Part shown: piece after piece, positions 1,440-10,548 of the stretch | Layout: the number at the start of each line of letters is the position of its first letter | Numbering within the stretch: the first letter of the stretch is position 1 | Origin: Candidatus Sigynarchaeum calidifontis | GTDB lineage: Archaea > Asgardarchaeota > Lokiarchaeia > Sigyniarchaeales > Sigyniarchaeaceae | Direction of reading: 5' to 3' | DNA length: 17,222 nucleotides | Assembly (NCBI GenBank): GCA_030587475.2 | Contig: JAUQYZ020000025.1 | Location: forward strand, 1-17,222 | Program-made: the position numbers and the translations under genes | The notes under the pieces: generated by a model | Seen by the model: the letters and a program-made list of their open reading frames with translations, nothing else | The model's database searches: none | Told to the model about the DNA's origin: nothing

Positions 1440-2603
1440 TTATATACGCAAGTATATCTTTTTCTTGTCCAATAACCATCCGACGAAACCTACCAAGGCC
1501 ACGGAACCCGCGCAGTACAGAAGCCCAACCCAAGCGATTTGCGGCGTGAGGAAATCGAACGCCCCTATCTCTCCCAGCACCGTTCCCGGGATGATCCCGA
1601 CTGCGTAGATTATGAGCGCGTTGCGGCCCATGGGCGTGAGCAGCGGGAACTGGAACTTGAAGACATGCTCGAGGGAAAAGAATAGCACGAGAAGGAAGAA
1701 GCCAGCGCCGATGGCGAGCAAATCCGCCGAGATGCTCAAGTCATGATGCTCGAACGGGATGAACCACATCACGACGAAGCAAGCAACGAGGGAATACATT
1801 GCCACCGGCAGGTGCCGCGCCTTGATGGCATCAACAGGCTTCTCCTTGTCGAACCAGTCCCAAAAGCAAGTACCCATGATCGAGATGGCACCGAAGCTCA
1901 GCAACTCGTAGGGGATCATGAACTCGTCGAAGAATGGACCACCCCCGACCCATTTCACGGGGGTTGCCGAGTTGTGCCGGAAAGCAGACAGCCCTGGGAT
2001 CAAGTAGAGCGTGCCGTGGATCACGAGCAGCGTCACGGCGATCAAGGCACGGCGATCGGGGTTCTTCACGAGTAACGTGGCAACCCCGCCGACAAGCGTG
2101 CCCAGACCTAGCGCTGAAAGCGTGGAGTTCTGGCCAAGCAAGAGCCCGCGATATGTCACATTGAAGAAATCCGTGACGGCTTGGAGCCCGATAAAAGCCC
2201 CGACCCTTACAAGCAGCCGCATAACCGCGCTCTTGGTACCGAACTTCTGCTGCCTACTCTTGAGCGAGATCGGGATCGTCACGCCGAGGATGAACATGAA
2301 CAAGCTGGAGCCGAGGTCGATGATCGTGTAAAATTGGTTTTCCATATCAAGCCAATTCCAAGTCACGTGGCTTGCATCATAGAATTGCCAGCCATGATCG
2401 ATGATAGGCGGGACAAGATGCATCTTGCCTAGTTCCCACGTGATCCACGAGATCGCGAGGAATAACACGGTTAATCCTCGAAATTGATCGATGAATTGAT
2501 ATCGATCGTGCGGTGTACGCCTGGCAGCGTCTTTCTTTCGCGATTCCCATTCCTCCGATGGAATGCCCTCGATCTTGATACCGTCCGTCCTATGCTCAGC
2601 CAT
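1440..2603 (-). CDS. HGSNAT-like (DUF1624/DUF5009) transmembrane acyltransferase family protein
   Basis: Motifs RYQFIDQFRG (RxxxxDxxRG), HVTWNW (HxxWxG-like), TIIDLGSSLFMFILG (TxxDLxxPxFxFxxG), PMGRNALIIY and C-terminal KKKIYLRI; multi-TM. The start is probably the ATG at 2603 (the ORF track extends to 2693). Confidence 0.75.
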   Translation of the reverse strand: MAEHRTDGIKIEGIPSEEWESRKKDAARRTPHDRYQFIDQFRGLTVLFLAISWITWELGKMHLVPPIIDHGWQFYDASHVTWNWLDMENQFYTIIDLGSSLFMFILGVTIPISLKSRQQKFGTKSAVMRLLVRVGAFIGLQAVTDFFNVTYRGLLLGQNSTLSALGLGTLVGGVATLLVKNPDRRALIAVTLLVIHGTLYLIPGLSAFRHNSATPVKWVGGGPFFDEFMIPYELLSFGAISIMGTCFWDWFDKEKPVDAIKARHLPVAMYSLVACFVVMWFIPFEHHDLSISADLLAIGAGFFLLVLFFSLEHVFKFQFPLLTPMGRNALIIYAVGIIPGTVLGEIGAFDFLTPQIAWVGLLYCAGSVALVGFVGWLLDKKKIYLRI

Positions 2604-2778
2604 GATGCTCGGTTCCTCGTGCTGCTGGAGAGGCTTTACACATCGGCTGAAACCAATCCAGCAAGTTATATGAGGATCTGGTTCCCACGCCATAATAGCT
2701 ATCCGAATTCGAGGATCACGTTATATGTCGTGCGGTCGTATTGGGAATCGCCGGTCTCCGACAAGCGCGTGTTGAGAA

Positions 2779-4374
2779 ATGGTGCTTGAAAAGATCGCTG
2801 GGGCAGCTACAACCAGCACGGGCGATTATCGCCAGGCCCTCGAGCATATTTGCACCGAGCTGGGCGAATTTTTCGGTTCCACAATTGGCAATGGCATGTC
2901 GAAGCTGGTCGAAGATCCTCACGGCAATTACGTCGTCGTGACTGACGGGGAGACCCTCGTGCGCGAGCTGCATCTCCGGTACAAGCATCCCATACTCTCC
3001 ATCTTGCTCGAGGCGGGGTACGAGCAAGGCCGGCAATGCGGCGACCTTGTTAAAGCGACCATGTTCCTTTGTTGCCGTTTCGTGATTGCCGGGCTTGGCT
3101 TGGTGGGGCAGGGCATCCACGCAAATCTCGTCAGCGAAGGATTCTCGAGCGCACTGCGTGCAATGTTGGCAAAAATCAAGCTTTTGGTTCAAGAAGTAGC
3201 TATGGATCTCAAGCTGGTTAATGCTTGCATTGCGGATTATTTATCAAGTCGATTGTCTCTTGCAGTGTCCCGGCACCTCGCCAATCTAGTCGCTGTCCCC
3301 CTGGCTCGCCATCTCGCGCAGCCAGAGGCACGAGGCCAAGATCGCGAACGGATCCTCGCCGCAATCCTTGACAAGCTCGGCATGATCATCAAACCTGGCG
3401 GGAACATCGTTGATTCTTTCATCGTCCAGGGCGTGGGACTCGTCAAGGATCCACTGTACTGGCACACAACGTGGAACAAGTGCTCGATCGAACAGCTTGG
3501 TAGCGTGCAGATCGCGATGGTATCAGGAGAACTCTATTTCGACAAGAAAAAGCACGGGGAAAGACTTTCCTTCGAGTTGCGAACAGCCGACCAGCATGGA
3601 TTTCGAGATGGTCTCGATGCTATCTGGGCTCGGAAGGCGAGCGTGCTCGCGTCGAAAGGCATACGGGTCCTCATCACGGAGAAAGGGATCGACGATGCAC
3701 TCGTCTCCGCCCTGAATGCCTTGGATCCGCCGGTCCTCGTCTTTCGGCGGGCAAAACAAGAAGAGATGAAAGCAATCGCGCGCCACGTGGGCGCGTTTAT
3801 CGTCCACGACATAGACGCGTTAGGTGATGCCGACATCGGCCATGCGCGTGCCATTAAGGTCGTAGAAACCAGAGGCGAAAGATGCTTCCTTTTCCAAAAT
3901 GAACGCGATCTTGAACAGCAAACGCTCGTGATACGTGGTTCCATGTATGACGTATGCGATGCAGTAAAGCATCACGTGATAGGAGCCATCGGGCATTGCA
4001 TCGATGCAATGACGAGCGGAACCATTTCTGGCTTCCCGTGGATCCTCGTTGACGCCGCACGGGCTGCGATTCAAGACAAGACCAGACCGGTTTCGCCCCG
4101 GGCCATGATAGCTCGCGAAGCCTTCCTTCACGAAGTCGAGTGGTTACCTCGCGTCATGCAAGCAAATCAAGGACTCGATCCGCTAGCGCCAGCCACGCCT
4201 GGAGCGACTGGCCAAAAAGTGACCGCCCGGTCCGTGGAACGCATGCTGAAGATAGCCGCGCTCACGGCGATACGGTTGCTCCGCGTGGACGAGTTGCTCG
4301 TGCACCCGGTAGGCTGGCAGAAGCGCGCCGGGAAAAAAGTCGAGGAGAAAATAGGTCATAACGAGGAAAATTAA
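2779..4374 (+). CDS. Divergent group II chaperonin (thermosome/TCP-1-like) paralog with degenerate ATPase motifs
   Basis: 531 aa with collinear chaperonin remnants: STIGNGMSKLV, VTDGETLVREL..HP, GDLVK at the GDGTT position, GIHANLVSEGF, KPGGNIVDSFIVQG, EKGIDD, RRAKQEEMKAIARHVGA, TLVIRG, AIRLLRVDELL. Confidence 0.85.
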   Translation: MVLEKIAGAATTSTGDYRQALEHICTELGEFFGSTIGNGMSKLVEDPHGNYVVVTDGETLVRELHLRYKHPILSILLEAGYEQGRQCGDLVKATMFLCCRFVIAGLGLVGQGIHANLVSEGFSSALRAMLAKIKLLVQEVAMDLKLVNACIADYLSSRLSLAVSRHLANLVAVPLARHLAQPEARGQDRERILAAILDKLGMIIKPGGNIVDSFIVQGVGLVKDPLYWHTTWNKCSIEQLGSVQIAMVSGELYFDKKKHGERLSFELRTADQHGFRDGLDAIWARKASVLASKGIRVLITEKGIDDALVSALNALDPPVLVFRRAKQEEMKAIARHVGAFIVHDIDALGDADIGHARAIKVVETRGERCFLFQNERDLEQQTLVIRGSMYDVCDAVKHHVIGAIGHCIDAMTSGTISGFPWILVDAARAAIQDKTRPVSPRAMIAREAFLHEVEWLPRVMQANQGLDPLAPATPGATGQKVTARSVERMLKIAALTAIRLLRVDELLVHPVGWQKRAGKKVEEKIGHNEEN

Positions 4375-6203
4375 GGTCTCTTCTTGATGGCTTCGGACGG
4401 GCAGATGGAGACGCACACTTCGCAGCCGTTGCATTGCATCTCGTTTACAATGACTTTTCCCTCGTCCGAAAGCGTGAGTGCGGGGCAGCCGAAATTCTTG
4501 ATGCATATCATGCAGTTGGTACACTTGTCCTTGTCGATGCAAACCGGCTCTGGCTTCTTTTTCATCGTGCCCGCCTCGTGCAGCGCGCATGCATGCCGGG
4601 AGATGATGACCCGTGGCCCCTTCCTCTTGATCGCTTCCTCGATCGCCTTGGTCACTTCCGGGAGCTTGTTGGAATCGACGATCCAGAGATCTTCCTTCTT
4701 CACGCCCGCGCCGAGCACGATCTGCTCGGGTGGGATGCGCGTTCCTTGTTCTCCCGAGATTTTAATCCCCGTTCCCGGGTGCGGCTGGAAGCCGGTCATG
4801 GCCGTTACGCTGTTGTCGAGGATCATGACGATGACATCATTCTGGTTGTACACGGCATCGACAAGTCCAGGCACGCCAGTGTGGAAGAAGGTCGAGTCGC
4901 CGATGATCGCAAAAACGGGGCCATCGTGCAACTTGGCGATGCCGTTAGCGAGACCTATCGACGCGCCCATGCAGATGCACGTTTCTATCGCTTCCGTCGG
5001 CTTGTAAAATCCAAGCGTGTAACAGCCGATGTCGCTCGAATAGACGAATTTTTTCTTGGTTTTGTACTCGACCAGCTTCATCGCGTATAAAGTGCTGCGA
5101 TGCGAGCAGCCCGGGCAGAGTACCGGTGGGCGTGGCGATGCCTTGTGGTACCCGTCGGTGGGCACGGCCAAGCTGGCGAACGGGTTTGCGATGCCTAGGA
5201 ACTTCGTTATGCCGGCAATAGTGGAAGTGAGATCGAGCTCGCCTTTTCTGGAAAAGTATTTCTTGCCCTCGATCTCCACGCGGGAACCAGACTCGTAAGC
5301 GAGTTTTTTCGCGAAATCCTCTATGAACGGGTCCAGTTCCTCCACCACGAGCACGCGATCGACGTTCTGGTAGAGTTTTTTCATCAACTCTTCGGGAAAC
5401 GGGAAAACCATGCCTAACTTGAGTGTCGAAACCTTTCCTTCGAGGCCGAGACTGTGGATCGCGTCATTTGCGTATGAATATGGAACCCCCGCAGAAATGA
5501 TTCCTATCTTTGCGCCGTCGACGAGATCGAGCTTGGTGAAGGGAAATTCGTTTGAAAATTTTCTTAGCGTCTCGTAGCGTTCGAGCAGTTTCACACGCTG
5601 GACCCGCGCGTTCGACGGGAGAAAAGTCCAGCGAGCACTATCATCATCGAAATCGTAAATCCGGTTCCCGATATCCACCCGATCGCCAAGAACCAGATCG
5701 CCACGCGCATGGTTGAGTCTCGTTGTCGTGCGCATCATCACGATGCTACTAAATTTCTCGGAAAACTCGAACGCGTATTTTATCGTGTCTTTGGCTTCTT
5801 GAATGTTGATTGCCTCGAACACGGGACACAGCGCGTGAAGCCCGAAATAGCGGTTATCTTGCTCGTTCTGGCTGGAATGGCACGCGGGATCGTCGGCAGA
5901 TAGCAAAACAAAACCACCATGGGCACCTGCATACGTCGCCGTCATGAATGCATCCGCCGCGACATTCACGCCCACGTGCTTCATGCACGCAAATGACCTG
6001 GCGTTGCACATGGACGCGCCGAGGGCGATTTCGAACGCGACTTTCTCGTTCGTGCTCCATTCCATCTTGATCTCTTGCTGGTGTACCTTGTTGATCTCAG
6101 CAAGTGCTTCCATTATCTCGGTTGAGGGGGTGCCCGGGTATCCAGCGGCGACTTTTACCCTAGCTTCGTAAAGGCCTCGGGCGAGGCCCTCGTTGCCAAG
6201 CAC
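4371..6203 (-). CDS. iorA: Indolepyruvate:ferredoxin oxidoreductase alpha subunit (true 5' end probably extends to about 6251-6258, see findings)
   Basis: LGNEGLARG, GYPGTPSTEI, EWSTNEKVA, MKHVGVNVAAD, DDPACHSSQNEQD, RPPVLCPGCSHR, TPP-binding GDSTFFH...DNSVTAMTGFQP, and a C-terminal 2x[4Fe-4S] domain (CTNCMIC...CP; CNGCEVCVSICP). Confidence 0.95.
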   Translation of the reverse strand: MLGNEGLARGLYEARVKVAAGYPGTPSTEIMEALAEINKVHQQEIKMEWSTNEKVAFEIALGASMCNARSFACMKHVGVNVAADAFMTATYAGAHGGFVLLSADDPACHSSQNEQDNRYFGLHALCPVFEAINIQEAKDTIKYAFEFSEKFSSIVMMRTTTRLNHARGDLVLGDRVDIGNRIYDFDDDSARWTFLPSNARVQRVKLLERYETLRKFSNEFPFTKLDLVDGAKIGIISAGVPYSYANDAIHSLGLEGKVSTLKLGMVFPFPEELMKKLYQNVDRVLVVEELDPFIEDFAKKLAYESGSRVEIEGKKYFSRKGELDLTSTIAGITKFLGIANPFASLAVPTDGYHKASPRPPVLCPGCSHRSTLYAMKLVEYKTKKKFVYSSDIGCYTLGFYKPTEAIETCICMGASIGLANGIAKLHDGPVFAIIGDSTFFHTGVPGLVDAVYNQNDVIVMILDNSVTAMTGFQPHPGTGIKISGEQGTRIPPEQIVLGAGVKKEDLWIVDSNKLPEVTKAIEEAIKRKGPRVIISRHACALHEAGTMKKKPEPVCIDKDKCTNCMICIKNFGCPALTLSDEGKVIVNEMQCNGCEVCVSICPSEAIKKRP

Positions 6204-6254: not shown

Positions 6255-7145
6255 TCATCCCCTCTGCTGCTTGTACAGCTTCCCTATCGCCAATCCCTCG
6301 TTGAAAGCCTTCATGTTGACCTCCAAAGCTTTCCTCGGGACGAAGCTCTCCACGGTCTTTCGCATTGTCTCTATCTTGAGCGGAACCTTTTCGATACCGG
6401 CGAGGACACCGAGCATGACCACGTTTGCCGCGAGTATATTGCCTGCTTGGATCGCGATCTCATCGGCGTCGACGATGATGGTATTCTTAGACGCGGCCTT
6501 GAGGTCTTTCTCAATTTCCGAGACGGGCGGGTATTCCCAGTCGTTGAAGGCCGTGATAGCACCGAATGGGCATATCTTGTCTACGATACATTGAGTGCAT
6601 CCAGTGCAAGAATCAAGTACAATCGAGTAACCGTTCCGAATTTGCCTCGATTCGCCCTGGATGAGGGTGAACTGCTTTTGCGCATCGATCTGCCCGCGAA
6701 AGACCTGGCTCGGTATGCAACTTGCAAGGCAGTTCCCACAACCGATGCATTTGTTCCCGTCGATCTTGAGCTTGCGGTGAGTTAGAACGGATGGCGGGAT
6801 GACGACAGTCTTGGATGTTATGATAACCGTTTCCTCGCCAATATATTTCAAATTACGCAATGCTTCCGAGATCTCGAATGCGAGCAATATATCGATGTCG
6901 CCCTCTATCATAAAAGGACCTTCAAGTGATTTTCCAAAGCGGAGGTATGAAGAGACCGAACCGCCTCGCTGGCTCATGCCGTGGGTCTCAGCTGTCCGGA
7001 CCTTGAATCCGTCGTTCATAGCGGCCCAGCCGAGGATCATGGACGCGCGTATCACGCCCGTGCCGCCGATACCCACGCATAACATGTTGTAGTTGTCCTT
7101 TATCGCTGCATGGATGCTAGTACTATCCTTGGTATTGGTAGCCAT
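6255..7145 (-). CDS. iorB: Indolepyruvate:ferredoxin oxidoreductase beta subunit with an inserted ferredoxin domain
   Basis: GIGGTGVI, ETHGMSQRGGSV, DILLAFEISEALR, GNILAANVVMLG, NMKAFNEG. Internal CIGCGNCLASC and CTGCTQC...CP motifs. Confidence 0.92.
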   Translation of the reverse strand: MATNTKDSTSIHAAIKDNYNMLCVGIGGTGVIRASMILGWAAMNDGFKVRTAETHGMSQRGGSVSSYLRFGKSLEGPFMIEGDIDILLAFEISEALRNLKYIGEETVIITSKTVVIPPSVLTHRKLKIDGNKCIGCGNCLASCIPSQVFRGQIDAQKQFTLIQGESRQIRNGYSIVLDSCTGCTQCIVDKICPFGAITAFNDWEYPPVSEIEKDLKAASKNTIIVDADEIAIQAGNILAANVVMLGVLAGIEKVPLKIETMRKTVESFVPRKALEVNMKAFNEGLAIGKLYKQQRG

Positions 7146-7259: not shown

Positions 7260-8591
7260 TTATTTCCCCTTGTATCCCCTGAAATCATCTGGTTTTTCGC
7301 GCAAGTCCTTGTATCGCTTGGCCTTACCTTCTTGCACGGGCAGGGTACCCGCGGGGACGACTGTAACGGGGATTTTCATCATGGCGGCTTCGTAAAGGTT
7401 CTTTTCGAGGTCTGCCTTTATTTTTGCGAAGTCTGTGCCAGACTTGCCCTCGACAGTGACATAGACATGGTCGAGAACGCCTTCGGTCTTGATGAGCATT
7501 TCCCAATTGTCCGTCGTGCCTGGTAGCTTGTAGACTTCCTCCTCGATCATGGATGGATACAAGTTCACGCCCTTTACGATGAGCATCTCGTCCTTTCGAC
7601 CGGATATCCGGTCCATTATCCAGCCAGTTCTACCGCATGGGCACTCGCTCTTGTGAATCGCGGTGATGTCCCCCGTGCGATAGCGAAGGATGGGCATTGC
7701 CTCCTTGAATAGTGACGTGAGCACGAGCTCACCTCGCTCCCCCTCGCCGAGAAGTTCGCCCGTTGCCGGATCGATGACCTCGGCAAAGAAATGGTCGCTC
7801 CAGATGTGTAACCCCTTTTGCTCGAGGCACTCGCAAGCAACGCCCGGACCACCACCTTCCGTGAGGCCGTAATTGTCATAAGCTTTGATATTGAGCCCTT
7901 TCTCGATGCGCTGCCGGGTGCTCTCGGACCAGCCTTCGGCCCCGATGATGGCACGCTTGAGGAACAAGTCCTTCACCGGGTCGAGGCCGAGCTCGGCAAC
8001 TTGCTCACCAAGCCGCAATGCAAAAGATGGAATCGCGTGGATCGTCGTGACTTGAAAGTCGATGAAAAACTGGATCTGCTTTGCCGACATGCCACCCCCG
8101 AAGGGGATGACCATCGCGCCAACACGAGTTGCTCCCTGGGTGTACCCGTACCCGCCCGTGAAGAGGCCAGATGAGGTCGTGTTCTGGAATACATCATTGT
8201 TTGTCATTCCGATACCGACAAGGTTCCTGGCGGTGAGATTGGTCCACGCCTCGAGATCGTTGCGAGTATAAAGGCCAACAGTCGGTTTCTTCCCCGACGT
8301 CCCAGATGTCGCATGCATGCGGACTAGCGTGTTACGTGGCACGCATAGGAGCCCGTACGGGTATGTATCGAGGAAATCCTTTTTTTCCATGAACGGGAAC
8401 TTCGTGATGTCGTCCACGGTTTTAAAGTCATCCGGAGAACGGCCGGCTTTCTTGATCTTGTTCTGGAGATACTGGTTATTGTTCCACATGTGATTGATGG
8501 TTTTCTTGATCTTTTCCTCGTGAAGCTTCGTTAACTCGCTCCAGGGAAGTTTTTCCATTTTTTCATCGAGGTAAAGGTAATTTTTTGCCAT
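7260..8591 (-). CDS. paaK: Phenylacetate-CoA ligase family protein (paralog 1, altered substrate-pocket motifs)
   Basis: MHATSGTSGKKPT P-loop, GLFTGG, IGAEGWS, YGLTEGGGPGVACEC, LRYRTGD, CPCGRT, GRKDEMLIVKGVNLYPS, GKAKR. Confidence 0.88.
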   Translation of the reverse strand: MAKNYLYLDEKMEKLPWSELTKLHEEKIKKTINHMWNNNQYLQNKIKKAGRSPDDFKTVDDITKFPFMEKKDFLDTYPYGLLCVPRNTLVRMHATSGTSGKKPTVGLYTRNDLEAWTNLTARNLVGIGMTNNDVFQNTTSSGLFTGGYGYTQGATRVGAMVIPFGGGMSAKQIQFFIDFQVTTIHAIPSFALRLGEQVAELGLDPVKDLFLKRAIIGAEGWSESTRQRIEKGLNIKAYDNYGLTEGGGPGVACECLEQKGLHIWSDHFFAEVIDPATGELLGEGERGELVLTSLFKEAMPILRYRTGDITAIHKSECPCGRTGWIMDRISGRKDEMLIVKGVNLYPSMIEEEVYKLPGTTDNWEMLIKTEGVLDHVYVTVEGKSGTDFAKIKADLEKNLYEAAMMKIPVTVVPAGTLPVQEGKAKRYKDLREKPDDFRGYKGK

Positions 8592-8748
8592 CTAAGTGAC
8601 CTTGCGCTGCTATCACAATAGTCGAATGAAAGATGTAAAAAAAGGATCTCTTTTAAAGTCCGATTCATGACACATAAGACAATGCTTTTGTGGAATGCCG
8701 TCAATGTTGGTATAAACGTGTTTTCAATCCCATTTTCGAGGTTTTTGT
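8592..8748. promoter_or_regulatory. Divergent promoter region between the two paaK genes
   Basis: AT-rich. TTTAAAA on the minus strand at about 8651-8657, TATAAA on the plus strand at 8711-8716, and a GAGGT RBS at 8738-8742. Confidence 0.45.
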
Positions 8749-10086
8749 ATGGTAGACCAAGTGCGGTATTGGAACAAGGAACTTGAAACCATGCCAAGGG
8801 CAGAGTTGCAAGACCTCCAGCTCCGGCGTTTCAAGGAGCTTGCAAAGCGTTGTTACACGAAAGTGAAGCATTACAAGACCAAGTTCACGGAAATGAAGAT
8901 CACGCCCGATGATATCAAGTCACTTGACGACGTGAAGAAGTTTCCCATCACGGTGAAGGCAGATCTCCGCGACAACTATCCGTTCGGGTTGTTTGCTGAG
9001 CCGATGGAAAATATCGTCCGCATCCACGCCAGTTCGGGAACCACGGGCAAGCCGACCGTCGTCGGGTACACGAAGCACGATATCGACGACGTGTGGACGG
9101 AGACCATGGCCAGGAGTCTCGTGAGCGCGGGCGTCTGGCGGGGAGACGTGATTCAAAATGCATACGGTTACGGGCTCTTCACCGGTGGTCTCGGAATACA
9201 TTTTGGAAGTGAACGCATCGGAGCGGCGGTCATTCCCATATCTGGTGGCAATACCGAGCGCCAGATAATGCTTTTCCAGGATTTCGGCTCGACCGTGCTA
9301 ACGGCCACCCCGAGCTTCGCCGCGTATCTCGCCGAGATGCTCAAGCAGCAGAAGGTCGACAGGAAGCTGATCAAGCTCCATACCGGCGTCTTCGGTGCCG
9401 AGTTCTGGACTGAAAAGATGCGGGAAAAACTGGAATCGGCCTTTGGGGCGGTGAATGCCACGGGCAAGTTCAACGCCATCGACATCTATGGCTTGAGCGA
9501 GATCCAGGGACCCGGCGTTTCGAACGAGTGCATCTTCAAGAGGGGTAATCACATCTGGGAGGACCATTTCTTGCCCGAGATCATCGACCCGAAGACAAGC
9601 GAGCGCGTCGCCCCCGGCGAGTCGGGGGAGCTCGTGTTCAGCACGATCACCAAGGAGGGAATCCCGCTTATCAGGTACACGACCAAGGACATCACGTCTC
9701 TCAACTACGAGAAATGCGATTGCGGCCGCACGCACGTCCGTCACGCGAAGATCACGGGCCGGTCGGATGACATGATGAAGATCAAGGGTATCAACGTGTT
9801 CCCCAGCCAGATCGAGTACGTGCTGATGAAAATCCCCGGCATCGCCGAGCATTACGAGATCATCGTCGAGCGGGACATCCTGGACAAGATCAAGGTGCGG
9901 GTCGAGCTCACGCCGAAGACCTTCTCGGACAGCATGGCCGAGCTCGAGAACCTAAAAAAGACCATCGAGAAGGAACTATACACGACGCTGCAAATTAACG
10001 CCGCTGTCGAGCTCGTCGCGCCCAACACGATTCCCCGGAGCATCGGAAAGGCGAAACGAGTCATTGACATGCGGAAGGAAGGTTAA
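8749..10086 (+). CDS. paaK: Phenylacetate-CoA ligase (paralog 2, canonical motifs)
   Basis: IHASSGTTGKPT, NAYGYGLFTGGLG, FGAEFW, DIYGLSEIQGPGV, CDCGRT, GRSDDMMKIKGINVFPSQIE, GKAKRVID. Confidence 0.93.
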   Translation: MVDQVRYWNKELETMPRAELQDLQLRRFKELAKRCYTKVKHYKTKFTEMKITPDDIKSLDDVKKFPITVKADLRDNYPFGLFAEPMENIVRIHASSGTTGKPTVVGYTKHDIDDVWTETMARSLVSAGVWRGDVIQNAYGYGLFTGGLGIHFGSERIGAAVIPISGGNTERQIMLFQDFGSTVLTATPSFAAYLAEMLKQQKVDRKLIKLHTGVFGAEFWTEKMREKLESAFGAVNATGKFNAIDIYGLSEIQGPGVSNECIFKRGNHIWEDHFLPEIIDPKTSERVAPGESGELVFSTITKEGIPLIRYTTKDITSLNYEKCDCGRTHVRHAKITGRSDDMMKIKGINVFPSQIEYVLMKIPGIAEHYEIIVERDILDKIKVRVELTPKTFSDSMAELENLKKTIEKELYTTLQINAAVELVAPNTIPRSIGKAKRVIDMRKEG

Positions 10087-10119
10087 ACGACAACAAGAAC
10101 GGATCAATGGTGAGATAAA

Positions 10120-10548
10120 ATGGTGACACAGATTAGCATCTTTCTCCCGAACCGTCCCAACCAGCTTGCAAAGGTCACGGGCCTCCTCATGAAGGAAAAG
10201 GTGAATATCCGCGCCCTGACCGTCAGCGAGACGTCCGATTACGGGATCTTGCGCATGATCGTGTCGGATCCGGACAAGGCGCAGAAGATCCTTCAAGGCA
10301 GCTTCCTCGTGGATCAGACCGACGTGATCGCTTGCGCGCTCAAGGATTCCCCCGGCGGCTTGCACGAAATTGCGACGGTTCTCGGCGATAACGATGTGAA
10401 CATTGAATACTTGTACGCGTTCGTTGGAAAAGTGAATCAAGCGATCTTGATCTTGCGCGTCGAGAACAAGATGCGCTCGAAGGCCATCGACGTGCTTGAA
10501 GCGCACAAGATCAAGATCTTCGATCCCGAAGAGATCTATTCGTTGTAA
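10120..10548 (+). CDS. Tandem ACT-domain protein (COG4747/BT0572-like), usual paaK neighbour
   Basis: QISIFLPNRPNQL...NIRAL.VSETSDYGILRMIVSDP; second ACT domain DSPGGL...VNIEYLYAF. GGTGAG RBS upstream. Confidence 0.9.
   Translation: MVTQISIFLPNRPNQLAKVTGLLMKEKVNIRALTVSETSDYGILRMIVSDPDKAQKILQGSFLVDQTDVIACALKDSPGGLHEIATVLGDNDVNIEYLYAFVGKVNQAILILRVENKMRSKAIDVLEAHKIKIFDPEEIYSL

What the first reader, a model, noticed from the sequence alone, without database searches (positions are those of the whole stretch)
2779..4374. Full-length but apparently ATPase-dead group II chaperonin paralog (archaeal 'pseudo-chaperonin', BBS-like in concept)
Seen: an intact 531-aa ORF with all three chaperonin domains in order, but most nucleotide-handling motifs are altered. 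LGP(K)G becomes IGNG (Pro lost). The P-loop GDGTT becomes GDLVK (aa 88-92, nt 3040-3054). By hand alignment from IRG, the catalytic Asp of 'ERxLxDA' becomes G402 (nt 3982-3984). GGGAxE becomes SGFPWI, and the late equatorial segment looks shortened by several tens of residues. The apical domain (EKGIDD, RRAK..MKAIA..VGA) and the last helix (LLRVDE) are kept. Established: these motifs are near-invariant in thermosome/CCT/GroEL, and eukaryotes have divergent chaperonin-like proteins (BBS6/MKKS, BBS10, BBS12, the Fab1/PIKfyve CCT-like domain) that act as adaptors or assembly factors. Inference: this is a non-catalytic ring subunit, holdase or assembly adaptor; if the host is Asgard, it bears on how CCT and BBS subunits diversified.
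Basis: partly seen in the sequence, partly recalled or inferred. Interest (0 to 1): 0.75.

Follow-up and report, generated by a model that had tools for sequence, protein, structure and literature searches.

The report
ATP-site-less thermosome paralog in Asgard archaea
A Lokiarchaeia-type Asgard archaeon has three normal protein-folding cage (thermosome) genes plus a fourth intact, fast-evolving copy whose whole ATP pocket is gone; this copy occurs only in a narrow clade, always beside one amino-acid fermentation gene cluster, and tells us nothing direct about the origin of eukaryotic CCT or BBS proteins.

Summary
Window 2779-4374(+) is an intact 531-aa group II chaperonin homolog (PF00118 150 bits; thermosome model 137 bits against a cut-off of 671). 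The predicted fold has all three domains and matches closed thermosomes (TM 0.76-0.78).

Every nucleotide motif is altered. LGPxG has lost its Pro, GDGTT reads GDLVK, the catalytic Asp is Gly402, and GGGA reads GFPW. About 24 residues of the C-terminal equatorial part are deleted.

These changes are shared by a 17-member clade found only in Asgard MAGs. The gene is under purifying selection (dN/dS about 0.2-0.3, against 0.07-0.09 for the adjacent iorA) but evolves about four times faster than the canonical thermosome. It is a truncated pseudogene in one sister genus.

The same genome keeps three canonical thermosome genes. In 12 of 12 intact loci the gene is convergent with an iorAB-paaK cluster.

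It is most likely an ATP-independent chaperonin-like binder. Whether it is a ring subunit is open.

The suggested link to CCT/BBS diversification is not supported, because the clade is narrow, derived and thermosome-like.

This scan has noted other ATPase-degenerate thermosome paralogs on other DNA. It has not noted this family (sequence look-up empty).

The parts
2779..4374 (+). Intact 531-aa ATP-site-less group II chaperonin (thermosome) paralog (P0001)
   Evidence: ORF. PF00118 149.8 bits. thermosome_arch 137 bits against cut-off 671. AF2 pLDDT 81.6, pTM 0.77. Foldseek TM 0.76-0.78 to closed Mm-cpn, thermosome and TRiC.
2884..2895 (+). Remnant of the LGPxG motif: I36-G-N-G39. The Pro of the adenine-contacting Gly-Pro dipeptide is deleted.
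   Evidence: Alignments. All 17 family members lack the Pro, and nearly all 140 other thermosome-like proteins have it.
3040..3057 (+). Degenerate P-loop G88-D-L-V-K-A93 (canonical GDGTTT). Leu90 is a clade synapomorphy.
   Evidence: One search shows Gly at this position in 98% of 140 non-family proteins and Leu in all family representatives. The Thr residues that bind phosphates are named in PMC5635000. A T-to-V change abolishes ATP binding in the T. acidophilum thermosome (PMC5983026).
3967..3990 (+). Former catalytic helix K397-H-H-V-I-G402-A-I (canonical ERxLxDAL). The catalytic Asp is replaced by Gly.
   Evidence: Asp is kept only in the deep members P0018 and P0020 and is G/R/A/S/K elsewhere in the family.
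4027..4047 (+). S417-G-F-P-W-I-L423 in place of (A)GGGAxE. Pro420 is a clade synapomorphy.
   Evidence: One search shows Gly in 97% of non-family proteins. The backbone NH of this glycine run binds the ribose in Ch-CPN.
4183..4245 (+). Shortened late equatorial linker (aa 469-489). Two deletions (about 12 and 14 aa) remove a helix and part of the hairpin and 'DM...VIEP' segment that lines the adenine pocket.
   Evidence: 18 residues against 42-44. AF2 shows a coil here. The mapping of Ch-CPN Met469 and Val474 into the deleted block is by positional offset, so it is an inference.
3523..3555 (+). Family-specific conserved motif S-G-E-L-Y-F-D-K-K-K at the base of the built-in lid (aa 249-258)
   Evidence: G250 is invariant; Y253 is newly conserved. 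The lid tip at 258-268 has low pLDDT.
4312..4332 (+). Conserved basic C-terminal motif G512-W-Q-K-R-x-G in place of the Gly/Met-rich thermosome tail
4371..6203 (-). iorA (indolepyruvate:ferredoxin oxidoreductase alpha). It is convergent with the chaperonin-like gene, and the two stop codons overlap in TTAA (4371-4374).
   Evidence: Pfam. Sequence. Adjacent in 12 of 12 intact loci.
6255..7145 (-). iorB variant with an inserted 2x[4Fe-4S] domain (296 aa)
   Evidence: Pfam. The insert is absent from the 206-aa IorB of a same-order genome that lacks the chaperonin-like gene.
7260..10548 (.). Two phenylacetate-CoA-ligase-like genes (7260-8591 minus strand; 8749-10086 plus strand) and an ACT-pair gene (10120-10548 plus strand). 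These are the rest of the conserved block.
   Evidence: The block is conserved in L008-L013, L040 and L041.
1440..2693 (-). Divergently transcribed 417-aa membrane protein (weak match to an HGSNAT/DUF1624-like acyltransferase). It is the upstream neighbour in only some carriers.
   Evidence: It is 76% identical to its L008 counterpart. Other carriers have different upstream neighbours.

Best explanation
The gene encodes a fourth thermosome paralog that selection maintains but that evolves fast. It keeps the equatorial, intermediate and apical domains and the built-in lid.

The canonical nucleotide pocket has been taken apart. The adenine-contacting Pro is deleted. The P-loop Gly is Leu and the phosphate-binding Thr residues are Val and Ala. 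The catalytic Asp is Gly. The ribose-binding GGG is FPW. The hairpin that closes the adenine pocket is deleted. That the protein therefore cannot bind or hydrolyse ATP in the chaperonin way is an inference from the sequence and from published structures and mutants.

Constraint has shifted away from the C-terminal equatorial region and toward the apical domain, the lid and the second intermediate segment. I therefore take it to be an ATP-independent binding module (holdase or adaptor).

Three observations make me think it more likely acts as a dispensable accessory factor on its own (monomer or homo-oligomer) than as a stoichiometric subunit of the three-subunit thermosome ring. It evolves about four times faster than the canonical subunits. 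It decayed in one sister genus that keeps all three canonical subunits. Even single P-loop substitutions block hetero-assembly in T. acidophilum.

It arose inside a narrow Lokiarchaeia-type clade and is not an ancestor or ortholog of CCT or BBS proteins.
For: Motif losses.

Roles of those residues: PMC5635000 names Pro37, Met469 and Val474 around the adenine, Gly390 at the ribose, Asp87, Thr89 and Thr91 at the phosphates, and Asp56 and Asp373 as catalytic. PMC5983026 shows that a P-loop T-to-V change gives no detectable ATPase and no alpha8beta8 assembly.

Fold kept.

Not a pseudogene: 17 intact members down to 27-37% identity, with 33 invariant columns. dN/dS is 0.20-0.29 on unsaturated pairs, against 0.07-0.09 for iorA. 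Every domain has omega below 1.

Shift of constraint at matched divergence: C-terminal equatorial region 26.6% identity (canonical 42.2), apical domain 38.2 (29.9), lid 30.0 (21.9), second intermediate segment 41.6 (33.7).

Fast evolution: 70% identity between congeners, where the canonical thermosome is 93%, iorA 88% and paaK 93%.

Dispensability: the copy in the closed genome G280 is truncated and carries a stop, while three canonical thermosome genes remain there.

Canonical partners are present in the own genome.

Narrow distribution.
Against: There is no biochemical or expression evidence. The oligomeric state could not be modelled, because only single-chain prediction was available and coordinates are not exposed.

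The N-terminal equatorial domain and the stem-loop (KL[IV]EDPHGN), which form inter-subunit contacts in thermosomes, are the best conserved parts. That fits some ring or oligomer assembly.

Asp56 and Asp89 (the NDG and P-loop aspartates) and Lys92 are kept, so a non-canonical ligand or metal site in the remodelled pocket cannot be excluded.

dN/dS of 0.2-0.35 is high for a prokaryotic gene, so part of the protein may be nearly neutral.
Confidence: 0.5

Rival explanations
1. It is a passive, ATP-dead fourth subunit that co-assembles with the three canonical subunits into hetero-oligomeric thermosome rings. This would give an asymmetric ring like that of CCT, where some subunits contribute little ATPase activity.
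For: The full three-domain fold with a lid is retained. The stem-loop and N-terminal equatorial domain, which carry ring contacts, are the most conserved regions. Three canonical partners are present in every related genome examined. ATP-site mutants of one subunit type (D93K-beta, T158A-beta) still assemble into alpha8beta8 in T. acidophilum.
Against: Divergence is about four times faster than in the canonical subunits it would have to pack against. The C-terminal equatorial region is the least conserved part and carries a 24-aa deletion. P-loop T-to-V mutants fail to hetero-assemble. The gene was lost in G280 while the canonical set was kept. The net charge has shifted (pI 6.0-9.7 against a canonical median of 5.5).
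Confidence: 0.22
2. It is a private, ATP-independent helper (assembly or stabilising factor) for the adjacent variant indolepyruvate:ferredoxin oxidoreductase and phenylacetate-CoA ligase module of aromatic amino-acid fermentation.
For: It is convergent with and immediately next to iorA in 12 of 12 intact loci, including members only 27-37% identical. The upstream neighbour has changed at least four times over the same span. In every carrier locus where iorB lies whole on the contig (9 loci), it is the unusual 294-306-aa form with an inserted 2x[4Fe-4S] domain, which is absent from the 206-aa IorB of a same-order genome without the gene. In G280 the orthologous IOR block is gone and the chaperonin-like gene is a pseudogene. 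Other AI notes of this scan report cluster-linked dead thermosome paralogs elsewhere. Those notes are leads, not evidence.
Against: The genes are convergent, so they are not co-transcribed. All carrier genomes are close relatives (IorA 72-88%, ArgRS 64-68% identical) that share a wider syntenic block (ArgRS ... Metallophos), so the adjacency may be inherited gene order. The G280 loss looks like one deletion that removed both at once, not independent co-loss. One locus has a gene inserted between them.
Confidence: 0.15
3. It is a decaying relic: a duplicated thermosome gene drifting toward loss with no function of its own.
For: It has the fastest evolution in its neighbourhood. dN/dS is about three times that of iorA. 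There is a confirmed pseudogene in G280. Its distribution is patchy and narrow.
Against: Reading frames are intact in 17 lineages across up to about 70% protein divergence. There are 33 invariant columns and newly conserved motifs (GELYFDKKK, YDVCDAVKHH, GWxKR). Omega is 0.2-0.3 overall and below 1 in every domain. The predicted fold is confident.
Confidence: 0.08
4. It is still ligand-driven: the remodelled pocket binds a nucleotide in a new way, or binds another ligand or a metal.
For: Asp56, Asp89 and Lys92 are kept. New conserved Cys and His residues appear around the former pocket: C/H at position 87, C393 (invariant) and H398-H399.
Against: The adenine, ribose, phosphate and catalytic elements are all lost together. 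The pocket-bearing C-terminal equatorial region is the least conserved part. No coordinates were available to test whether the Cys and His residues lie close together.
Confidence: 0.05

Closest known systems
Archaeal thermosome subunits (group II chaperonin, PF00118; e.g. Sulfolobus/Acidianus beta 3J1E/6XHI, M. maripaludis Mm-cpn 3RUQ, T. acidophilum 1A6D)
   Same: Same superfamily and the same three-domain fold with a built-in helical lid. These are the best sequence hits (E about 1e-29) and structure hits (TM 0.76-0.78). It coexists with three canonical paralogs in the genome.
   Different: About 20% identity. It scores 137 bits against the 671-bit thermosome cut-off. LGPxG, GDGTT, the catalytic Asp and GGG are all lost. 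About 24 aa of the C-terminal equatorial part are deleted. The tail is basic (GWxKR) and not Gly/Met-rich. The pI is neutral to basic. The protein is rich in Trp, His and Phe.
Eukaryotic chaperonin-like proteins BBS6/MKKS, BBS10, BBS12 and CCT8L (Mukherjee et al. 2010, PMC2846930)
   Same: The concept is the same: full-length group II chaperonin paralogs whose hydrolysis motif (GDGT and the catalytic triad) has degenerated, and which are thought to act outside the normal ATP-driven folding cycle.
   Different: Those proteins are eukaryotic, derive from CCT, and keep the Gly-Pro ATP-binding dipeptide. This family is archaeal, scores closest to thermosome models, has lost the Pro as well, and is confined to a narrow Asgard clade. 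The resemblance is convergent. No BBS sequences were available here for a direct tree.
Low-ATP-affinity CCT subunits of TRiC
   Same: The idea of division of labour among paralogous ring subunits, some of which contribute little to ATP turnover.
   Different: By my own knowledge (not tested here), all eight CCT subunits keep recognisable nucleotide-binding motifs and are slow-evolving, essential ring members. This protein keeps none of those motifs, evolves fast and is dispensable in a sister genus. Its scores against the CCT equivalog models are at most 92 bits, against cut-offs of at least 456.
Milder degenerate Asgard thermosome paralogs (P0026-like class, annotated 'thermosome subunit beta', Helarchaeota)
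   Same: They are Asgard-specific extra thermosome paralogs with an altered P-loop (GDG[GL]K) and no catalytic Asp (Asn in its place). They are the nearest group along the branch to this family in the trees.
   Different: They keep LGPxG, the third P-loop Gly, GGG and the full C-terminal segment. They score only 176-232 bits against the family profile, where true members score at least 295.

Membership tests
Cpn60/TCP-1 superfamily (PF00118), group II chaperonin fold | Pfam PF00118 match above the gathering score | tested here: met
   149.8 bits against 34.3, covering aa 30-469.
Cpn60/TCP-1 superfamily (PF00118), group II chaperonin fold | Equatorial, intermediate and apical domains with a built-in helical-protrusion lid | tested here: met
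   AF2 pLDDT 81.6, pTM 0.77. Foldseek TM 0.76-0.78 over about 520 columns to closed Mm-cpn, thermosome and TRiC chains.
Functional thermosome subunit (NCBIfam TIGR02339 / NF041082 / NF041083) | Score above the curated thermosome cut-offs | tested here: not met
   137, 117 and 118 bits against cut-offs of 671, 450 and 400.
Functional thermosome subunit (NCBIfam TIGR02339 / NF041082 / NF041083) | Nucleotide-binding and hydrolysis motifs: LGPxG, GDGTT P-loop, catalytic Asp of ERxxxDA, GGG | tested here: not met
   IG-NG, GDLVK, G402 and GFPW. The same holds across the 17-member clade, except that Asp is kept in 2 deep members.
Functional thermosome subunit (NCBIfam TIGR02339 / NF041082 / NF041083) | Assembly into double 8- or 9-membered rings | not testable with these tools
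   Only single-chain prediction was available, and no coordinates were returned.
Eukaryotic CCT subunits (TIGR02340-02347) | Score above a CCT equivalog cut-off, or closer to CCT than to thermosome models | tested here: not met
   The best CCT model (eta) gives 92 bits against a cut-off of 669. The thermosome model scores higher at 137 bits. All ten representatives that I classified from the top 150 hits are archaeal thermosome-type.
BBS6/10/12-type chaperonin-like proteins | Eukaryotic, CCT-derived origin with the Gly-Pro ATP-binding dipeptide retained | tested here: not met
   The Pro is deleted. The feature itself is described in PMC2846930. The family is found only in Asgard MAGs. A direct tree with BBS sequences was not possible because none were at hand.
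BBS6/10/12-type chaperonin-like proteins | Degenerate hydrolysis motif in a protein that is otherwise full length | tested here: met
   This is a functional analogy only.

The most novel reading that the evidence does not exclude
This would be an undescribed archaeal 'pseudo-chaperonin' family that has given up ATP altogether and become a dedicated, ATP-independent assembly or stabilising factor for one enzyme system: the variant Fe-S-rich indolepyruvate:ferredoxin oxidoreductase and aryl-CoA ligase module beside which it always lies. That would be a prokaryotic parallel to the client-specific BBS chaperonin-like proteins of eukaryotes, arisen independently within Asgard archaea.
Probability: 0.15. 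Interest if true: 0.7.

Novelty: new variant of a known kind. Interest (0 to 1): 0.5.

Why it matters
Group II chaperonins are textbook ATP-driven machines. Full-length relatives that have lost ATPase function are, in the literature I could search, described only in eukaryotes (BBS6/10/12, CCT8L).

This family shows that an archaeal lineage close to eukaryotes independently made a chaperonin-like protein with the whole nucleotide pocket removed, and kept it under selection. It offers a small, tractable system for two questions: what a chaperonin scaffold can do without ATP, and how dead paralogs arise next to multi-subunit rings.

It also guards against over-reading such paralogs as CCT/BBS precursors. 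This one is young, narrow in distribution and fast-evolving.

For annotation, these genes are currently labelled 'TCP-1/cpn60 chaperonin family protein' or 'chaperonin GroEL', which implies an activity they almost certainly lack.

Tried and rejected
1. A tree with CCT1-8 and BBS proteins. No eukaryotic sequences could be obtained by reference. The ten representatives I classified from the top 150 exhaustive-search hits were all archaeal thermosome-type. The CCT/BBS question therefore rests on HMM scores, distribution and branch length.

2. Placing the family inside a particular canonical thermosome clade. Both the FastTree and the PMSF quick tree put it on a stem of about 1.9 substitutions per site, joined with other long branches (P0054, then the P0026-like group). 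Long-branch attraction cannot be excluded.

3. Defence-system link suggested by the fast evolution. There were no PADLOC hits for the protein or its unannotated neighbours.

4. Literature. Four searches found no description of this family or of ATP-site-less thermosome paralogs in Asgard archaea.

5. Earlier scan notes. The sequence look-up found nothing. The word look-up found other degenerate thermosome paralogs in other genomes.

6. P0023 and P0025 (about 1050 aa) scored high against the family profile, but they are tandem fusions of two canonical units and not family members.

7. The matches in f21 and G128 at 200-232 bits are the milder P0026-like class, not members.

8. Per-domain dN/dS was too noisy to rank domains, beyond showing that all are below 1.

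9. Pocket geometry and clustering of the conserved Cys and His residues could not be examined, because model coordinates are not exposed.

10. The sigma-70 promoter and terminator scan is uninformative for an archaeon.
Full report
**The object.** Window 2779-4374(+) is an uninterrupted 531-codon ORF. It matches PF00118 (Cpn60_TCP1) at 149.8 bits over aa 30-469. It reaches only 137 bits against NCBI's thermosome subfamily model, whose cut-off is 671, and at most 92 bits against any CCT equivalog model. The nearest solved proteins are Sulfolobales thermosome beta subunits (E about 1e-29, about 20% identity). An AlphaFold2 model built on the family alignment is confident (pLDDT 81.6, pTM 0.77). 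It superposes on closed-state Mm-cpn, thermosome and TRiC subunits over about 520 columns with TM 0.76-0.78. The protein is therefore a complete three-domain group II chaperonin fold with the built-in lid.

Every claim holds at the stated coordinates.
- HMMER alignments and an alignment with 140 other thermosome-like proteins show LGP(K/R)G as I-G-gap-N-G, so the Pro is deleted.
- GDGTT(T) reads G88-D-L-V-K-A.
- ERxLxDAL reads K-H-H-V-I-G402-A-I, so the catalytic Asp is Gly.
- (A)GGGAxE reads S-G-F-P-W-I-L.
- The late equatorial segment has 18 residues where canonical proteins have 42-44. Two blocks of about 12 and 14 residues are missing.

**What the lost residues do.** Published structures and mutants say what these residues do. 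In the AMPPNP complex of the archaeal-like chaperonin Ch-CPN:
- the adenine is surrounded by Pro37 (the Pro of LGPxG), Ile152, Phe461, Met469 and Val474;
- the ribose hydrogen-bonds to the backbone NH of Gly390 (the GGG run);
- the beta and gamma phosphates bind Asp87, Thr89 and Thr91 of GDGTTT;
- Asp56 and Asp373 are the catalytic pair (PMC5635000).

In the T. acidophilum thermosome a single conservative Thr-to-Val change in the P-loop gives no detectable ATPase and prevents alpha8beta8 assembly (PMC5983026). In our protein the Pro is gone, the two Thr are Val and Ala, the third P-loop Gly is Leu, the GGG run is FPW, and the second catalytic Asp is Gly. By positional offset, the Met469 and Val474 equivalents lie in the deleted block; that last mapping is an inference. 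Only the two aspartates equivalent to Asp56 and Asp87 survive. That canonical ATP binding and hydrolysis are lost is an inference, but a strong one.

**It is a family, not an accident.** The word-indexed search found orthologs at 99, 71, 66-68, 51 and 42-44% identity. They come from MAGs named Lokiarchaeota, Lokiarchaeia and Sigynarchaeota. An exhaustive HMMER search of 1.84 billion representatives with the family profile found further members at 295-461 bits (P0018-P0022). Scores then dropped to a plateau near 155 bits for ordinary thermosomes. Where named, these further members are 'Promethearchaeota archaeon' MAGs.

All 17 members share four derived characters: the deleted Pro, GDL at the P-loop, an aromatic-Pro pair replacing GGG, and the shortened C-terminal segment. 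Leu90 and Pro420 replace glycines present in 98% and 97% of the other 140 proteins. The catalytic Asp survives only in two deep members (P0018, P0020). This suggests stepwise decay of the site. The clade is monophyletic in FastTree (99) and in a PMSF mixture-model tree (SH-aLRT 99) on a very long stem.

**Selection.** The family alignment has 33 invariant columns. It also has new conserved motifs with no canonical counterpart: SGELYFDKKK at the lid base, YDVCDAVKHH on the former catalytic helix, and GWxKR at the C-terminus.

Nei-Gojobori dN/dS on pairs with unsaturated dS (0.33-0.50) is 0.20-0.29. For the C-terminal part of the adjacent iorA in the same pairs it is 0.07-0.09. Every domain has omega below 1. 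The gene is therefore maintained, under roughly three-fold weaker constraint than its neighbour.

Its rate is striking. Between congeneric genomes it is 70% identical, where iorA is 88%, paaK 93% and the canonical thermosome 93%. Across carriers whose IorA proteins are 72-78% identical, it falls to 27-37%.

At matched overall divergence the pattern of constraint is inverted relative to canonical thermosomes:

| Region | Family identity (%) | Canonical identity (%) |
|---|---|---|
| C-terminal equatorial region | 26.6 | 42.2 |
| Apical domain | 38.2 | 29.9 |
| Lid | 30.0 | 21.9 |
| Second intermediate segment | 41.6 | 33.7 |

The protein is also less acidic (pI 6.0-9.7 against a median of 5.5) and richer in Trp, His, Phe and Cys.

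**Genomic and phyletic context.** The window's genome (4.99 Mb, 89% complete) encodes three canonical thermosome subunits with all motifs intact. Two are complete. One is split across the ends of contigs C203 and C132, with an overlapping EEKMLK. Related genomes each have the same three.

Among 400 Asgard species genomes, only the window's genus has intact copies of the fourth gene. A closed genome of a sister genus (G280) has a remnant directly downstream of ArgRS. The remnant covers only residues 16-312, has an in-frame TGA at the invariant Gly250, and reads GTL for GDL. Its 3' half and the whole IOR block are replaced by a DUF1156/N6_N4 DNA methylase gene. No orthologous iorA is present elsewhere in that genome.

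The cultured-Loki-type family of the same order lacks the gene. Its iorA is only 50-52% identical and sits in a different context, next to an ordinary 206-aa IorB.

In 12 of 12 intact loci the gene is convergent with iorA. The two stop codons often overlap in a TTAA. Beyond iorA, wherever the contig reaches that far, come iorB (always the 294-306-aa form with an inserted 2x[4Fe-4S] domain), one or two phenylacetate-CoA-ligase-like genes and an ACT-pair gene. The upstream neighbour differs among carriers. One locus has a gene inserted between the chaperonin-like gene and iorA.

**Interpretation.** These points are shown:
- the ORF is intact;
- the fold is predicted to be retained;
- the nucleotide motifs are lost;
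- the clade is conserved;
- selection is purifying but relaxed, and evolution is fast;
- canonical paralogs coexist with it;
- distribution is narrow, with one pseudogenised copy;
- it is invariably adjacent to the IOR cluster.

These points are inferred. The protein no longer uses ATP. It works through what is still conserved, namely the apical domain, the lid and the stem-loop, as an ATP-independent binder.

I lean toward a dispensable accessory factor that acts outside the stoichiometric ring, for four reasons:
- a ring subunit must keep two lateral interfaces and one inter-ring interface with slowly evolving partners, yet this protein diverges four times faster than they do;
- its C-terminal equatorial region is the least constrained part;
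- P-loop substitutions alone disrupt hetero-assembly in vitro;
- G280 lost it while keeping all three canonical genes.

The ring-subunit rival remains live, because the stem-loop and the N-terminal equatorial domain are well conserved. The IOR-dedicated-helper idea is attractive but is confounded by inherited synteny among close relatives and by the convergent orientation. Pure decay is unlikely given omega well below 1 and 17 intact lineages.

**Relation to known things.** It belongs to the Cpn60/TCP-1 superfamily by sequence and fold. It fails the defining functional motifs and the curated cut-offs of thermosome subunits, and it is not a CCT.

It works like the eukaryotic BBS6/10/12 and CCT8L chaperonin-like proteins only in concept. 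Those are CCT-derived and retain the Gly-Pro dipeptide (PMC2846930). Nothing here supports common descent with them.

It is a recent, lineage-specific offshoot.

Other degenerate thermosome paralogs exist. One is a milder Asgard class with GDG[GL]K and Asp-to-Asn. Many of the 140 compared proteins carry single-motif changes. AI notes of this scan report several such cases in other genomes. This family is the most extreme case I saw, and I found no description of it in the searchable literature.

**Verdict.** The feature is real. It is a new variant of a known kind (a pseudo-enzyme paralog of a chaperonin). Interest is moderate: it is biochemically intriguing and easy to test, but narrow in distribution, and it is not the evolutionary link that was suggested.

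Noticed in passing
P0023 (1057 aa, Freyarchaeota) and P0025 (1047 aa): Each is a single ORF holding two complete canonical thermosome units in tandem (PF00118, 2 stretches, 1025 and 814 bits). These are covalently fused double subunits.
   Followed up: partly
L017-L023 (G117-G122, G128) and P0026 (Helarchaeota): A second, milder class of Asgard thermosome paralog. The P-loop reads GDG[GL]K and the catalytic Asp is replaced by Asn (ERLLRNA), but LGPxG, GGG and the C-terminal segment are intact. It is present in 6 of 6 genomes of one family.
   Followed up: partly
P0054 (533 aa) and P0114 (603 aa): Two further singleton thermosome-like proteins with strongly degenerate motifs (P0054: GDFTK, Asp replaced by Ser, GAGAWQ; P0114: GGG run unrecognisable). 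The host is unknown. They cluster with the family in trees, possibly through long-branch attraction.
   Followed up: no
window 6255-7145 (-): IorB carries an insert of about 80 aa with two CxxCxxCxxxC motifs, relative to the 206-aa IorB of a same-order genome. In every carrier locus where iorB lies whole on the contig it is this 294-306-aa form.
   Followed up: partly
window 4371-4374: The convergent chaperonin-like and iorA genes end in overlapping stop codons within TTAA, leaving no intergenic space. The same 4-nt overlap occurs in L010, L024-L026, L041 and L042.
   Followed up: partly
L016 / L039 (G280:C1:3624000-3640000): In a closed genome of a sister genus, the chaperonin-like gene is a truncated pseudogene directly after ArgRS. 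The IOR/paaK block is replaced by a 752-aa DUF1156 + N6_N4 DNA methylase gene, which looks like a deletion or insertion event.
   Followed up: yes
L003 (G000:C132) and L004 (G000:C203): The third canonical thermosome gene of the window's genome is split across two contig ends. The halves overlap in EEKMLK, which indicates an assembly break and not a split gene.
   Followed up: yes
window 1440-2693 (-): A 417-aa multi-pass membrane protein with only a sub-threshold match to the HGSNAT/DUF1624 acyltransferase domain. It is 76% identical in a carrier whose chaperonin-like gene is 44% identical, and it is divergently transcribed from the chaperonin-like gene in several but not all carriers.
   Followed up: partly
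L040 2317-5889: In one carrier the upstream neighbours are a MazE-antitoxin-like gene and a 1112-aa protein with no Pfam match.
   Followed up: no
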